A stretch of DNA of 64,000 nucleotides from Eledone cirrhosa (lineage: Eukaryota). The notes below the pieces were generated by a model. The model worked only from the letters and a program-made list of their open reading frames with translations, was not told the origin of the DNA and did not search any database. The stretch spans positions 44,268,001 through 44,332,000 of the forward strand of contig OZ024747.1 in the NCBI GenBank assembly GCA_964016885.1, in the 5' to 3' direction. Of this stretch, positions 461 to 35,254 are shown piece by piece. The position numbers and the translations under genes were made by a program. The first letter of the stretch is position 1. Every line of letters starts with the position of its first letter.

Positions 461-655
461 ATCTTATATTAGATTTTATATTACCTTTGAAGCTAGAAAT
501 GATCCATTATTATTGTGAATAGAAATAACAACAGAGATTATGAAATAAGTACTTCATGGGTAGGAGTGGACACCACACACACACCTAACCTACCGACAGT
601 AAAAGAAACCTCAATGACTCAATAGACTGCGGCACATGATGTGAAATAACTGGAT

Positions 656-941
656 TAACTCTTTTGTGCTACATATCTCATGAAAAATGTTGTTCATGGT
701 TTTCAATAAATTTTGTAATTAATCCAAATATTTAGAGGAACCTAGTAAAATAATACATGTTGCCATTATTAACCTGATGCTTGAAATATAACTACAAAAC
801 TACCCTCCCCCCCACACACATACACATACAAATAAAACTAGATTCTTAACAAAAATATGTGGGAAAGATCCGATCAAAATAGGAACATCAAAATGAGAGG
901 ATTTTGTATCATAGAAACAGGGGTTGCCTGAAGTGGGTTAA
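656..941. mobile_element. Decayed TTAA-flanked MITE copy (family also at 5097, 11318, 23488, 27827)
   Basis: TTAActcttttg ... gggTTAA termini; internal similarity to the other copies. Confidence 0.4.
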
Positions 942-1256
942 TATGAAAAAGAAAGAAGGAAACCAAGAATGAGCGAAGAACATGACAGTAAATATCATAC
1001 TAACTGTTAAACACTCAATATCAAGTATAAAAAAAAAAATTAAAAAAATGTTAATGAGGGTTTTATTCTATGGTCATTGAAAACTACCCCCTGATAAATA
1101 GAGGTTTCAGGGAAAGAAAATGAAAAGTAGTAAGACTAACAAAAAGAACTATATTATAAAAAGCTATGCAAGTAAAACTTCCCAATGGAAAGAAAGAAAA
1201 AAAAAAAAACAGTGGACCAATTTAAAGATCACACTAACACAGTGCGTTTGTTTGTT

Positions 1257-1300
<44 letters not shown>

Positions 1301-3859
1301 CATATATGTATATATATAAAGCAGCTTCAGTTGACAGCTTGGCAATGTGCCCATGTTAAAGGGGGAGCTGCTGCTATTTGCCTCTATTGCAGTGAATTGC
1401 CAAAAAGGGCTTCTCTCTGGGTGTTCACGCTGAATCATTTCTCAAACCAGTTCTCCAATACAAAAACCAACAGACAAGACATTTTCTCCAACTGAGGTAT
1501 TTGTTAGCCATTGATGCCAGCCAACCAGCCTATTTTTTTTTTCTTCTCTTCCTGCAGCTGTCAATCTGAAGCCAATGACCTTACATTTTTCAATCTAAAC
1601 ACCTGAATGTGAACACATCTGACACCATTAGAAGGCCATCTCAGTCATGAAAATTCATCTATACACTCAGTGAAGAAGTTGTCAATATGAAGTGGTAATA
1701 AATAGTAATAACATTAATAATAACCTGTGATTCAGACCAACAGAAATCGGCATTGACACCTTTTCTAAGGAAGTGCACAATGCAAAACGAAAGATGTATT
1801 TAAATGTATACATATATACATTTATGCGTGTGTACACCAGTCAAATCATGTCAGAGATAAAACTACTCTATAATGTAGAATACTAAAGAAATACAAATAC
1901 ACACACACACACACACAGACAGACACGTGTGAAAGTATACATGCATATAGAAACAAATTACTACCACAACACTAGAAAATGTGTTAAGGAAATCAAAGTA
2001 GATATTTTATGGAGAAAATAGAGTAAATGAATAAATAGTAACTTTTAGTGAGGTTTGGAATAGAGGGTTGAAGGGCAGCAGGGTTGACAACTCACTTTAC
2101 GTGGTGTGTGTGTATATATTTACATAAGAATAGCGCTTGTTAAGCAACTCAACTAATTCTATTTGCAGCAAGACATTTTATATATATGGAAAAAAACGGA
2201 TGTAAAACGATGGTATACACCACCCCACTCACCGACACTTATCATGCCATGCCTGTCAATTCTAACAATGCCACTGCCAATGAAGATGATTTGTCACTTA
2301 AAAAGAAAACCACAAATCTTGGGAGGAATGTAGAAATGATGAAAACTTGGCGAGATTTAAATTCGGACTAAAAAGGGCCGTTACAAAATACCACAAAGTA
2401 TTTGTTAGGAGCACTAGCTATTAACTCATAAGTACAATAATAATAAAGTTTCTAATATATGTACTAGGGCACAAATAGTCTGGTAATAATTAAATCAACA
2501 CCAGTACTTGAGTGGTATCTTATTTTATCAACTCTGGTAGGACGAAAGGCACCATTTACCTCAGAATATAGAAATGAAATACAATAAAGAGTGTAATGGG
2601 CTACAGTACATGTACGCCTATATATTATATTAAAACAAGAGTAGGGGTAAAGACATTATACAATAGATGAATTAAAATTCATAACTACATGAATGGAAAT
2701 AGTACCAATTATAATAGTAATGGGTATTGTCTCAATATCCAGTTAGTTGTTGACAACAGTTATACAATTGGTTCAGGTGACTCCAACTTAGTGCAGGTGA
2801 TTTCATTGCTCCCAGAACCATGGAAAGCAGAAAACTAAAATGATTTATTCCAGTACTTTCACATTTCTGCTTTCCATGGTTCTTTTTCAACCATAATTTC
2901 CCACATTTGCTAACTGGTTCTTACTTTTATCAACTTTGATTTTGGTGGAAATTAAATTCAGGTAGGTGAGAGAGAAAAAGACACACAAACACAGACTTAA
3001 ATACTTTTTAGGCTTTTTTTTTCCCCAGCATACTGATGCTGCTACCTTGAAGGCATTTCATTAAATGCACAATCATTTCCGCAACTCTTCTGTCTTAACC
3101 CCTAATCACAAGATATCTTGTGACAAATTAAAATGGCAAAGTGCCACATAACAAGATATCTCCAGCAAGAAAAATACCTGCCTACAGTCAATCATAAAAT
3201 ATTTCGTGATTATATATCCCTTTATAAAGCTTGTATTTTATTGGTTTATATATTTAGTTGCCATAGAAATTTCTTATATTGGCCAATTGAAAAACATTTT
3301 ACAATTGATATCATTAACTTTCGGCATACAATTTTAGTACATAATAGCTAGCTTTGGTCAATTGTTTCTTGTACATTTTTCACTATTTGATTGACACCAA
3401 GCAGTTCCAATGACAAATTTAAAATTTTTCTCTCTCAGTATGTTGAAAATAGGAGAAAATGTTTCAATTTTATCATAGGCAATAGAAACATCAGAATTGA
3501 AAATGACACAGACAAACAAATGCTATAAAATCTTATCAGGGTTGGCGCCAGAATTTATCCCAAAATTGGATAGAGATAAAATACAATTTTTAAAAACAGT
3601 CTCCACGTATAATTTATATAAAATAACACCACCAGAAAATGTTATGGAAAATTACACCAAACTGAAAATGGCATGATACTAATGAAGCCGAGAAGAAAAT
3701 AAACCCAGTGTCAGTATATGGTATGTACAGAATCACACACTCAATGACAGAGTAAACTTGGAAAAAAACCAAAGTAAGTCGGAAAGAAGACAGGACCCTG
3801 GTGCCATCAGGAAAGTGGCCATGCTCGCTAGACAGAAAAAGAATTGGTAGAAACTCCAT

Positions 3860-4480
3860 ACAATGAACAACAGGATAGAAGGCAGACTAACAGAAAAAGT
3901 AGATTTTGTATTGTAGAAGATGCACAGGGATAGTTGGTCGTAAGAGCTTCAGTAAAATAAACTGTTTCTAATTCCTGGAAGGATCCATAGATGTGATTGG
4001 TAACTTGATACCTAGATGATCTAATTAGCAGTAGAGGAGGTTGCTAATTACAATAACAAGTGGAAAGTTCATGGAGCTACTATCCCTGTTGACAATAAAA
4101 AAGGTCAACTGTATGATGCAGGTGTGTGAAGTGCATTGTTGCATAACAGTGAGATATGGGAAATGAAGCAATCATGCATTGATGGATATGCAATGTTAAT
4201 ATGCATAAACAACAAAGCATGGATGATGAGCTGGGAGAAAAATTATGTATACAAGAAAACAGATGCAATGTGCTGGAGAGAAGACTGCATTGATATGGTC
4301 ATGTTATACATATGGATGATAATTTCTGGATGAAGAAGTACCAAGAAATCCTAGTGGAAGGAAGCTGCAGTAGAGGGAGACCTGATCTAAAATCAGCTGA
4401 AGCTCACCAAGGAGATGATAAAGGACCACGAGTGGGGGGGATGCTGTACTAGAAAAGACCCTTTCAAAACATGAGACCAT
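3860..4480 (+). mobile_element. RTE-clade LINE relic, 3' part of ORF (post-RT region)
   Basis: Broken frames give YL(G)DLISS.GG, W.KF.ELL.LL, LH(N)SEIW and VEGSCSRGRP motifs typical of RTE C-termini; many stops. Confidence 0.65.
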
Positions 4481-32443: not shown

Positions 32444-33019
32444 ATACATACACAATTCATATATACACACATAAATAGAAATAGCTTACTGACAACCACA
32501 AAGAGTACTACCAATATTTTTCTAAACAGTGTTTGATTTTCGATTATTTAAACTTTTTTTCTTTTTCTTTTAAATAAGGAAACAAAAAATGGTGAAGACA
32601 GAAAGCAAGAGATTTGTTTGAATGTATCAAGAAAAATTTCTACAATCAATTCTTAACTTTATATTATAATAAATGCAGCTGTGAAAGATATAAAAATACT
32701 AAAAAAAAAAATAATAAAAATCTGCTAATAGACTGTCATCATCATCCCTGATGATGATGTCAATAATGGAAATAAATTTGACATGTAAGAATTTTTAAAG
32801 ATTAACTACATATAGTGGCACCAATAATACATTTAAAGTAAAACAAAACAAATATCAAAATAGGCAAATTGTTTTCTAAAATATGTAGTATGTAGTTTTT
32901 GAAAGGCAGGCAGATGCAACCATGTATGAGAAAACTGAATAGATAAAACAAGAAAACAAACATCTTTGTAATATACAGGCCAATCTTTATCAAACTTTCT
33001 GTTTGCATATATATATATA

Positions 33020-33363
33020 CAATGATATTAAATAAATGGAAACTATATTTATAAAACCATATTTATTTTATTATATATATTTCAAGGGTACCAAGACAAC
33101 ATTGGTACGCTTTCAGATAAAATACAAAGTTTGTTTTATACATAGAGACATACTCATGAAAAGCATACCTTATCGGTTGGAAATTCACTGGATAGTGAAT
33201 TTCCAACCGATAAGGTATGATTTTCATGGGTATGTCTCTATTTATAAAACAAACTTTGTATTTTATCTGATGAAAGCGTACCAATGTTGTCTTGGTACTC
33301 TTGAAATATATATAAAATAAATATGGTTTTATAAATATAGTTTCCATTTATTTAATATCATTG
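33020..33363. repeat. 344-bp near-perfect palindrome (~170-bp arms, 4-nt loop), probably a Penelope-like inverted pLTR
   Basis: caatgatattaaataaatgg...ttcact-GGAT-agtgaa...ccatttatttaatatcattg; unique tail to ~33455; TA runs on both sides. Confidence 0.95.
33259..33320 (+). ncRNA. Type I minimal hammerhead ribozyme motif
   Basis: tattttat-CTGATGA(33267-33273)-aagcgtaccaa-tgttgtc-ttggtactctt-GAAA(33303-33306)-tatata-TA-aaata. Confidence 0.65.
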
Positions 33364-33690
33364 AATATTTACTCCAGTAACTTGTTGAGTGTTCTAAATC
33401 AGTTATAAACATTTATATTTGTCGGACTTCCAACAAATTAAATACCCCTTCTACTTATATATATATATATATATATACACACCATATATAATGAATATCA
33501 TCCACATCATATTAACAGTCCTGTCCTTATTGAAAGCTTTTTGAAAAGAGAAGCAACTTCTGCTGTAAGAAGAGTCTCCATTTATAATGTGTGTGTGTAT
33601 ATATATAAAAAGATTCAGGACCCCGATGGTCCACCTGGTATCTTACCACACCCTCTTTGTTATATATATAAATATATATATATATATGTG

Positions 33691-33810
33691 AAGGCGTGTG
33701 GCCGAGTTGGTTAGAGAATTGGGTTCACACTCGTGAGGTTATGAGTTCGATTCCCAGACCGGGTGATGCGTTATGTCCTTGAGCAAGACCCTTTATTTCA
33801 CATTGCTCCT
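33691..33810 (+). mobile_element. SINE 5' part (tRNA head and CORE), truncated
   Basis: ggcgtgtggccgagttggttagag...gagttcgattcccagaccggg...ccttgagcaagaccctttatttcacattgctcc. Confidence 0.8.
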
Positions 33811-35254
33811 TCTACCTGGAGTTGCGACCGATAGATAGTATCAGCAATTGGAAAGACCAATGGAAACATTGTTTTCTTGGTCTGATTTGACTAAAGTCGA
33901 TCGAAAGAAAAAAAAAATATATATATATATATATATTATCCAGGTTTTTAGAATAGGTACACTCTATGCCTAAATATCATAAGAGGCAACTAAAAGGATT
34001 GGCATCGAGAAGGGCTGTAAAACATTCTCAAAACATCCTGTCCAATCGATGCTAGTATGGAAAACCAGACATAACAATGATATATATATATCTGTATAAA
34101 TATGCACATAATCAGTTTTTTTTTTAATGCTTGCATGGGATAGATGGGTTGTCATGCAAAGGTCATACAAGCAAGTCAGGCGACTGTCTTTTGCTCATAT
34201 GTTCTATTTTGGCATGGTCTCTACAGCTGGATGATTTCCTAATGCCAACCACTTCATGGCATACTTCAGGCTTGTCTTCTTGTGGTACTCGCACTACAAC
34301 CTGTCAGGGTAGACTGTGTGCTTTTTTTCATGGGCACCCGCACTGCCACTTGACGGTGTGTGCAGGGAGCATTTTATCATGTCCCCAGCATTATCACTTT
34401 ACAGAGTGGGCTAGGTGCAATCTTTATTGTGGTACAGTACTACCACATTTGCATCCTTGGCCAGGCTGGGAGTTGTGTGTGTGCCTGTTAGTAGAGGGAG
34501 ACTGTATTAGCTTCCCATGTGGATATGATTGGGAACAGAAGTGGGGAATTCAGGGATAAGTTTGGAAGTGTTGGGTTATAGATAGAGGGTAAGGAGTGAG
34601 CAAGCAGCATCTAGCAGTACAATGAAGGGGCATCTGTCTTTAGGTAAGAATCAGGGATGTGAGAGGGAGGGAAAACTAGGTGGGTAGAAGGACTATAATG
34701 AGTGAGATCATGTAAGGGGCAACCTAAGTGCTGTTACATCTCTCTACCTTTTAAGATCATCCTTCCCATGCTCATGGAGTCAGGTATGTGAATGGAGGGG
34801 GAAGGACTAGGTGCAGAGATGCAGGATATGTAGTGGGGGTTGATAGATGGTGTTGTCTAAGTGTTGTTGCATTTTACTGATTTTAATGTATGATTGACAT
34901 GTGGCACACAAGAAGCAATAGAAATAAATTATGCAATCCAAATTTAATTTACTTTTCAGTTGTGCCAAAGACAACATCTTCCCTAGTGTGGGTGCCATGA
35001 TAAAAATACACAGTATACTCTGTGGAGTGAATGATGAGTTAGTGGCACCAATTGAGTACTGATCTATGTGTGTGTGTGTGTGTTTATTCACCAATGTCCT
35101 CTGGGTTTATGTTTGTGTCTATGTCCTGCAACTTAGCAGTTCAGCAAAAAAAGAGATCAATAAAATAAGTACTAGATTTGAAAAAAAAGTTCTGGGGAAA
35201 TATGATCACCTAAATCAAGGTGGTGCCCCAGCATGGCACCACAGTCAAATGACA

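What the first reader, a model, noticed from the sequence alone, without database searches (positions are those of the whole stretch)
33020..33455. 344-bp palindrome whose two arms hold complementary damaged copies of one hammerhead
Seen: ~170-bp arms around a 4-nt loop. The right arm (+) has an intact CTGATGA core, a long helix II and GAAA, but lacks 3 nt at the cleavage site/helix I. The left arm (read on -) has the proper GAAA-TATATA-TA^ATAAAATA junction pairing with TATTTTAT, but lost 'TGA' from the core. Their consensus is a complete minimal HHR with palindromic helix III. A ~90-bp unique tail follows and the unit sits in TA runs. Known: PLE insertions often carry an inverted pLTR. Inference: a hairpin-forming PLE-derived unit that would yield long dsRNA (ADAR/Dicer substrate) from either strand.
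Basis: partly seen in the sequence, partly recalled or inferred. Interest (0 to 1): 0.75.

Follow-up and report, generated by a model that had tools for sequence, protein, structure and literature searches.

The report
Head-to-head Penelope retrotransposon stump
This 344-base palindrome is real, but it is two short ends of a very abundant Penelope-like jumping gene joined head to head in a TA repeat, an already described arrangement, and the different small deletions in its two hammerhead motifs are likely independent slips in a copy predicted to be dead.

Summary
The palindrome (33020-33363, loop GGAT), the two different 3-nt deletions and the ~92-bp tail are all there. The right arm plus tail is the 3' end (pLTR) of a high-copy family: 2,597 and 4,688 exact matches to two hammerhead halves, against 4 and 61 with this locus's deletions. 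Longer copies carry an RT plus C-terminal endonuclease ORF with Hydra-clade Penelope motifs. An inverted truncated copy with a one-sided tail in (TA)n is the published insertion form. 17 of 30 position-ordered matches have such an arm. Of 46 head-to-head pairs, 37 join one long end to one short end and none joins two long ends, which fits priming from both cut DNA ends. The same joint recurs at 16 loci with the tail on either arm, so the hairpin is not itself an amplified unit. Complementary damage occurs in 1 of 27 two-hammerhead pairs, this one. Reads did not confirm the deletions. This scan reported the same kind of stump before, in this and other genomes. Ordinary.

The parts
33008..33019 (.). 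(TA)n target repeat, left side
   Evidence: family arms end in TA runs
33020..33189 (-). Left arm: inverted 5'-truncated pLTR copy ending at the family's short end (family position ~171)
   Evidence: short ends at positions 168-183 in 89 of 204 distinct arms
33064..33124 (-). Left-arm hammerhead: cleavage junction and helix I strands intact, core lacks TGA (predicted inactive as ribozyme core)
   Evidence: 4 such copies in the genome against 2,597 intact
33186..33197 (.). Joint CACT-GGAT-AGTG: reverse complement of the element's own CACT-ATCC-AGTG mini inverted repeat; 4-bp microhomology
   Evidence: identical 34-mer joint at 16 loci, reversed-pattern control 0
33194..33363 (+). Right arm: 5'-truncated pLTR copy, sense strand
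33259..33319 (+). Right-arm hammerhead: CTGATGA, helix II and GAAA intact; 3 nt missing at helix III/cleavage site, so no U-H before helix I (predicted not cleavable)
   Evidence: 61 such copies against 4,688 intact
33364..33456 (+). Tail: family sequence between the short end and the long end (family position ~264)
   Evidence: in full-length L031 the element runs on past this point into the ORF start
33457..33477 (.). (TA)n target repeat, right side; no target-site duplication can be discerned

Best explanation
The unit is two 5'-truncated ends (pLTRs) of a high-copy Penelope-like retrotransposon family with Hydra-clade motifs, joined head to head in a TA repeat, likely made in one insertion event and predicted to be dead. 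Shown: family membership, copy number, the RT-endonuclease parent, the two fixed 3' ends, the recurrent joint, and the rarity of both deletions. Inferred mechanism: the endonuclease cuts both strands of a (TA)n target; one DNA end primes reverse transcription at the short end and the other at the long end, ~92 nt downstream; both cDNAs stop near the element's CACT-ATCC-AGTG mini-hairpin and anneal through it, giving a palindrome with a one-sided tail. Afterwards each arm likely lost one unit of a trinucleotide doublet, (TGA)2 on the left and (TAA)2 on the right, by independent slippage. In read-through RNA the sense hammerhead is always in the second arm and is predicted to be buried in the hairpin, damaged or not.
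For: Family: 2,864 candidates, 40 scored, 96-100% identical; exact motif counts 2,597 and 4,688. Parent: L031 holds pLTR-ORF-UTR-pLTR (~3.7 kb) with an inverted truncated copy at its 5' end; open frames of 689 and 699 aa show DKT, Y(R/H)DD, CxCX5C and a C-terminal VVYK...YVG endonuclease, as defined for Hydra in PMC8557442 section 11. Structure is common: 17 of 30 position-ordered matches, 12 of 25 distinct insertions, have an inverted arm. End pairing: 37 long+short, 2 short+short, 0 long+long and 7 unclassified of 46 pairs; P=1.3e-9 for 37 of 39 under random pairing. At 16 identical joints the tail lies on the loop-carrying arm in 6, on the other arm in 7, on neither in 3; simple fold-back of one cDNA cannot give both. 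In 13 of 35 measurable pairs the partner arm is closer than any other sampled arm. A purified Penelope protein cuts and extends both strands and starts at two sites that bound the tail (PMC11167929). Hammerhead covariation among 126 haplotypes: helix II pair 86-104 T-A 87, C-G 21, T-G 10; helix I pair 70-125 T-A 80, T-G 26. Helix II pairing probability 0.0 in the full plus-strand RNA.
Against: The exact pair of deletions is expected only 0.02-0.16 times genome-wide if there are 500-4,000 two-hammerhead loci (number assumed), so the coincidence is somewhat unlikely, although chosen after the fact. This locus's arms share no private variant (10 differing columns; 41% of other arms are as close), so a single template is not shown here. 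The pair sample is not random: the loci were chosen for having a long arm, which depresses short+short but not long+long, and many loci were picked by hammerhead patterns, which inflates core conservation. Pfam finds no family for the long ORFs (a weak RVT_1 match, E 0.024), so clade assignment is by motifs and by eye against published sequences, not by a tree. The element is longer than the typical <3 kb Hydra element, and its tail (~92 nt) is longer than the usual 30-40 nt.
Confidence: 0.87

Rival explanations
1. Same element, but the palindrome arose by fold-back self-priming: one cDNA (or antisense template) folds at the mini-hairpin and copies itself, and the tail is added by a later template jump.
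For: The joint is exactly what a cDNA ending in CACT-GGAT-AGTG would give on snapping back. Arms often share rare variants, for example 0 differences in L071 and L074. Self-priming was proposed for such head-to-head palindromes in PMC3846280 (passages).
Against: In 7 of 16 identical-joint loci, including this one, the arm without the loop extends ~92 nt beyond the start of the arm it would have copied; in 6 others it stops exactly at the short end. Both outer ends sit at fixed family positions, and no long+long pair was seen in 46.
Confidence: 0.2
2. One or both 3-nt deletions are assembly errors caused by the long hairpin; the real arms are more alike.
For: No contig or read laid here showed either deletion. 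Long palindromes are error-prone in some long-read chemistries (own knowledge).
Against: The TAA deletion is not enriched in hairpin loci (14 of 30 against 17 of 30 baseline). 15 of 27 two-hammerhead pairs have both motifs intact. Both deletions recur in solo copies.
Confidence: 0.1
3. A non-autonomous fold-back (MITE-like) hairpin element that multiplies as a unit.
For: The identical 34-bp joint occurs at 16 dispersed loci.
Against: Those loci differ in which arm has the tail, in arm length and in subfamily variants; variants are shared between the arms of a locus rather than among like arms of different loci. Most other pairs have other joints.
Confidence: 0.03
4. A split hammerhead: divergent transcripts from the centre supply the catalytic strand (right arm) and the substrate strand (left arm), and the pair is kept for a function.
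For: Cut out of the hairpin, the two pieces co-fold into exactly the trans hammerhead, with intermolecular helices I and III, as their minimum-energy state (-25.9 kcal/mol). The coincidence has a low chance expectation.
Against: 1 of 27 pairs shows it. Thousands of intact family motifs exist. In read-through RNA both motifs are predicted to be buried. The locus is young and shows ordinary private changes. Metazoan Penelope hammerheads cleave weakly even as dimers (PMC4209133).
Confidence: 0.02

Closest known systems
Hydra clade of Penelope-like elements, e.g. Hydra-1_Obim and Penelope-13_HM (Craig et al. 2021, PMC8557442; passages, section 11, supplement passages and part 2 of 59 seen)
   Same: C-terminal endonuclease, DKT, CxCX5C, CxxC and CxH motifs, hammerhead in the pLTR, (TA)n target; Penelope-13_HM is listed with a 5'-truncated inverted copy and a hammerhead on both strands
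   Different: A different family from Hydra-1_Obim (other hammerhead and protein sequence, by eye); ~3.7 kb with a ~1-kb 3' UTR and an asparagine-rich linker; RW followed by R or C rather than K in the two copies read
Inverted pLTR plus one-sided tail of endonuclease-bearing Penelope elements (PMC3846280, passages seen; PMC8557442 section 6 passage and Fig. 2 legend)
   Same: Head-to-head inverted truncated copy, tail at one end only, palindrome at the joint
   Different: No ORF is left at this locus; the tail is ~92 nt rather than 30-40 nt
Poseidon element of Anolis studied in vitro (Frangieh et al. 2024, PMC11167929; parts 1-2 of 4 seen)
   Same: Both target strands cut and extended, AT-rich target, two internal start sites that bound the tail, hammerhead not needed for insertion
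   Different: Other clade; that paper saw no difference in start site between strands, whereas here paired arms are long+short in 37 of 39 classified pairs and never long+long
Minimal Penelope hammerheads (Cervera and de la Pena 2014, PMC4209133; parts 1-2 of 4 seen)
   Same: Type I motif with long helix II and palindromic helix III; pairs ~100-700 bp apart on opposite strands were reported
   Different: Here both copies carry a disabling 3-nt deletion

Membership tests
Hydra-clade Penelope-like element | Single ORF, RT followed by C-terminal GIY-YIG-type endonuclease | tested here: met
   689- and 699-aa frames with Y(R/H)DD then VVYK...YVG, in copies linked to this pLTR; read by motif, Pfam gave no family
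Hydra-clade Penelope-like element | DKG modified to DKT | tested here: met
   KSDKTNN in L050, L051, L053, L068
Hydra-clade Penelope-like element | Linker CxCX5C, no CCHH in the endonuclease, CxxC and CxH near the C-terminus | tested here: met
   CNCRIKSNC, FCKLC, SCRH in L055 and others; no CCHH seen by eye
Hydra-clade Penelope-like element | N-terminal RWK motif | tested here: inconclusive
   RW present at the matching place, followed by C in L068 and R in L031 DNA
Hydra-clade Penelope-like element | Hammerhead in the pLTR and insertion into (TA)n | tested here: met
Hydra-clade Penelope-like element | Generally under 3 kb (typical, not absolute) | tested here: not met
   L031 spans about 3.7 kb from pLTR to pLTR
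Hydra-clade Penelope-like element | Placement in an RT phylogeny with reference clades | not tested
   Reference proteins were only seen as text in a supplement; compared by eye
Naiad Penelope-like element | N-terminal endonuclease, no canonical hammerhead | tested here: not met
   Endonuclease is C-terminal and a hammerhead is present
Type I hammerhead ribozyme (family form) | CUGANGA, GAAA, UH site, helices I and II with covariation | tested here: met
   sample partly chosen by hammerhead patterns and related by descent
Type I hammerhead ribozyme (this locus) | Complete core and cleavage site in one arm | tested here: not met
   Left arm lacks TGA of the core; right arm lacks the UH site
Type I hammerhead ribozyme (family form) | Self-cleavage | not testable with these tools
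   needs an in vitro assay
Fold-back or MITE-like unit | Copies share one fixed structure and descend from one palindrome | tested here: not met
   16 identical-joint loci differ in tail side and variants
Non-LTR retrozyme | Direct tandem array of hammerhead-bearing monomers | tested here: not met
   One inverted pair, no direct copy in the window

The most novel reading that the evidence does not exclude
A naturally split hammerhead: internal pLTR promoters fire outward from the palindrome centre, giving two sense RNAs that are not complementary to each other, one with only the catalytic half intact and one with only the substrate half, which cleave in trans as the predicted heterodimer.
Probability: 0.02. 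Interest if true: 0.7.

Novelty: new member of a known kind. Interest (0 to 1): 0.17.

Why it matters
The locus itself matters little: it is one decayed stump among thousands. The family statistics have some value for how Penelope elements insert. Paired arms almost always join one long and one short end and never two long ends, and they often share rare variants. This predicts that the two cut DNA ends use different start sites on the same or sister RNAs, which can be tested with the existing in vitro system. Thousands of such 170-bp hairpins would also be a source of double-stranded RNA if transcribed, which was not testable here.

Tried and rejected
Rfam: whole-window scan listed only microsatellite-driven miRNA matches among the 150 of 425 shown; local scan gave no hammerhead family at E<=10. 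Expression: no RNA holder listed, so transcription, editing and small RNAs are untested. Read check: contigs of X1-X3 (one sample) run from the left flank only 11-14 bases into the element, short of the tool's 31-letter rule, and none listed spans the centre or a deletion; RAD-seq reads of three other samples gave almost no depth over 33110-33194 at 99% likeness; neither supports nor contradicts the deletions. Idea that the 5' ends mark a transcription start near the mini-hairpin: 35 of 92 arms start within -20..+16, but exact 22-mer counts across that point were 782, 278 and 490, not monotonic and confounded by subfamily variation, so inconclusive. Host gene context: none of 14 window ORFs tested had a Pfam match. 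No solved-structure match for the 689-aa ORF. Literature search for Penelope + twin priming + inverted found 2 papers, neither on this topic by title and abstract start; that single search does not show the idea is unpublished. PMC13282606 (passages) and bioRxiv 10.64898/2026.07.22.740005 (passages; supplements closed) added nothing specific. Look-ups of earlier findings by place and by sequence returned nothing.

Full report
Observation. The window shows a 344-bp palindrome: left arm 33020-33189, loop GGAT 33190-33193, right arm 33194-33363, then a tail to 33456, with TA runs on both sides. The arms differ by 4 substitutions and two 3-nt gaps. The right arm keeps CTGATGA, a long helix II and GAAA but has 5 instead of 8 nt before the helix I 3' strand, so no U-H cleavage site is in register. 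The left arm, read on the minus strand, keeps that junction but lacks TGA from the core. Rfam does not recognise the motif at E<=10.

Family. The right arm plus tail has 2,864 candidates in the own genome (G000, 3.0 Gb); the 40 scored matches are 96-100% identical over the full length. Exact pattern counts: intact core half 2,597 against 4 with the TGA deletion; intact cleavage half 4,688 against 61 with the TAA deletion; reversed-pattern controls 0. Both deletions remove one unit of a trinucleotide doublet, TGATGA and TAATAA, which is what slippage does (sequence; own knowledge). Among 126 distinct motif haplotypes, helix II pair 86-104 reads T-A 87, C-G 21, T-G 10, and helix I pair 70-125 reads T-A 80, T-G 26, while loop II is the most variable part. 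This supports a real hammerhead fold in the source lineage, with the caveat that many loci were picked by hammerhead patterns and are related by descent.

Parent element. Locus L031 holds an inverted truncated copy, a pLTR, a frameshifted ORF, a ~1-kb 3' UTR and a second pLTR ending in TA repeats, about 3.7 kb in all. A search with its endonuclease piece gave 151 matches from 150 scored of 60,097 candidates. Of 20 of these fetched, several have open frames of 500-700 aa with RW, DKT, Y(R/H)DD, CNCRIKSNC, VVYK...YVG, CKLC and CRH. These are the features listed for the Hydra clade in PMC8557442 section 11, which also lists (TA)n targeting and hammerheads. By eye the protein resembles, but is not, Hydra-1_Obim. 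Pfam names nothing (weak RVT_1, E 0.024), and I built no tree, so the clade call rests on motifs. That the host is a cephalopod is my inference from repeat content and earlier notes, not a tool result.

The arrangement is routine. PMC8557442 describes an inverted 5'-truncated copy next to the pLTR and a tail at one end only (passages); its supplement lists Penelope-13_HM with such a copy and a hammerhead on both strands. PMC4209133 reports hammerhead pairs 100-700 bp apart on opposite strands. PMC3846280 describes head-to-head palindromes and proposes self-priming (passages). In this family, 17 of the first 30 position-ordered core matches (12 of 25 distinct insertions) have an inverted arm, 13 of 30 one that covers the hammerhead.

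How it likely formed. Arms end at two fixed places, near family positions 171 and 264. Of 46 distinct head-to-head pairs, 37 are long+short, 2 short+short, none long+long and 7 have an end that could not be classed; P=1.3e-9 for 37 of 39 under random pairing. The loci were chosen for a long arm, so the absence of long+long is the robust part. The joint CACT-GGAT-AGTG is the reverse complement of the element's own CACT-ATCC-AGTG. The identical 34-bp joint occurs at 16 loci; the tail is on the loop-carrying arm in 6, on the other arm in 7 and on neither in 3. That excludes one amplified hairpin unit and is hard to get from fold-back of one cDNA alone. A purified Penelope protein cuts and extends both target strands and starts at two internal sites bounding the tail (PMC11167929). 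I therefore infer priming from both target ends, one at each site, with the two cDNAs joined at the 4-bp microhomology. In 13 of 35 measurable pairs the partner arm is closer than any other sampled arm, which suggests one template or sister templates; at this locus the arms share no rare variant, so that is not shown here.

Complementary damage. Only this locus shows it among 27 pairs with both motifs; 15 pairs have both intact by pattern (the sample was enriched for deletions by design). The exact combination is expected 0.02-0.16 times for an assumed 500-4,000 two-motif loci, so it is a mild coincidence picked after the fact. The TAA deletion is not enriched in hairpin loci (14 of 30 against 17 of 30), which argues against a hairpin-specific assembly error, but neither contigs nor RAD-seq reads confirmed the deletions. 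Cut out as short pieces, the two damaged motifs are predicted to co-fold into a trans hammerhead (-25.9 kcal/mol). In full read-through RNA the hairpin dominates (-252.6 and -247.1 kcal/mol; helix II pairing probability 0.0; uninterrupted duplex runs of 21-90 bp). Because the arms are head to head, the sense motif is always made second and would be masked. Only outward transcription from the centre would free both, and there is no evidence for it.

Earlier notes. A word search of this scan returned seven similar findings, two in this genome, all read as Penelope head-to-head stumps; one already proposed priming from both cut ends and said joints differ at nearly every site. My counts agree on the mechanism and add that one joint recurs 16 times.

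Verdict. Real feature, known kind, probably an undescribed family of the Hydra clade, dead at this locus. Interest 0.17. The long+short pairing rule is the one point worth a genome-wide count and an in vitro test.

Noticed in passing
window 56282-56237, minus strand: A second, unrelated type I hammerhead motif (CTGAAGA core, short helix II, GAAAC, short helix I) followed by ~25 nt and then TA repeats; likely the 3' end of another Penelope family.
   Followed up: partly
window 33688-33890: Directly after a TA run, a stretch with tRNA-like A- and B-box wording; looks like a SINE by eye, not tested.
   Followed up: no
window ~39600-60700: About 20 kb dominated by TA/TACA-type microsatellite arrays with extreme GC skew, interrupted near 50500-52100.
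   Followed up: no
L013 ~1420-1500 (as oriented): The mini-hairpin motif at the family's joint hot spot is reiterated about four times in tandem upstream of the arm, suggesting repeated template jumps at this motif; similar short reiterations in L010, L022, L070 and L127.
   Followed up: partly
L071, L074, L075, L076, L083: The two arms of one insertion share rare variants, including a core-breaking change in both arms of L076; this points to one template copied twice or to conversion between arms.
   Followed up: partly
L031 4140-4550: Asparagine-rich linker between RT thumb and the CxCX5C motif, and a ~1-kb AT-rich 3' UTR; N-rich inserts are also described in rotifer Penelope elements (PMC3846280 passages).
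   Followed up: no
L002 ~1926-2453 (as oriented): A family copy lies just upstream of an exon-like frame with a RING-finger-like CPVC...CGHTVC motif (by eye); such intronic copies would be the ones to check for double-stranded RNA.
   Followed up: no
L022 1-748, L031 749-1039, L032 2176-2721, L057 4021-6099: Other retroelements next to family copies: endonuclease frames of other Penelope families and a 693-aa LINE-like RT frame (by eye).
   Followed up: no
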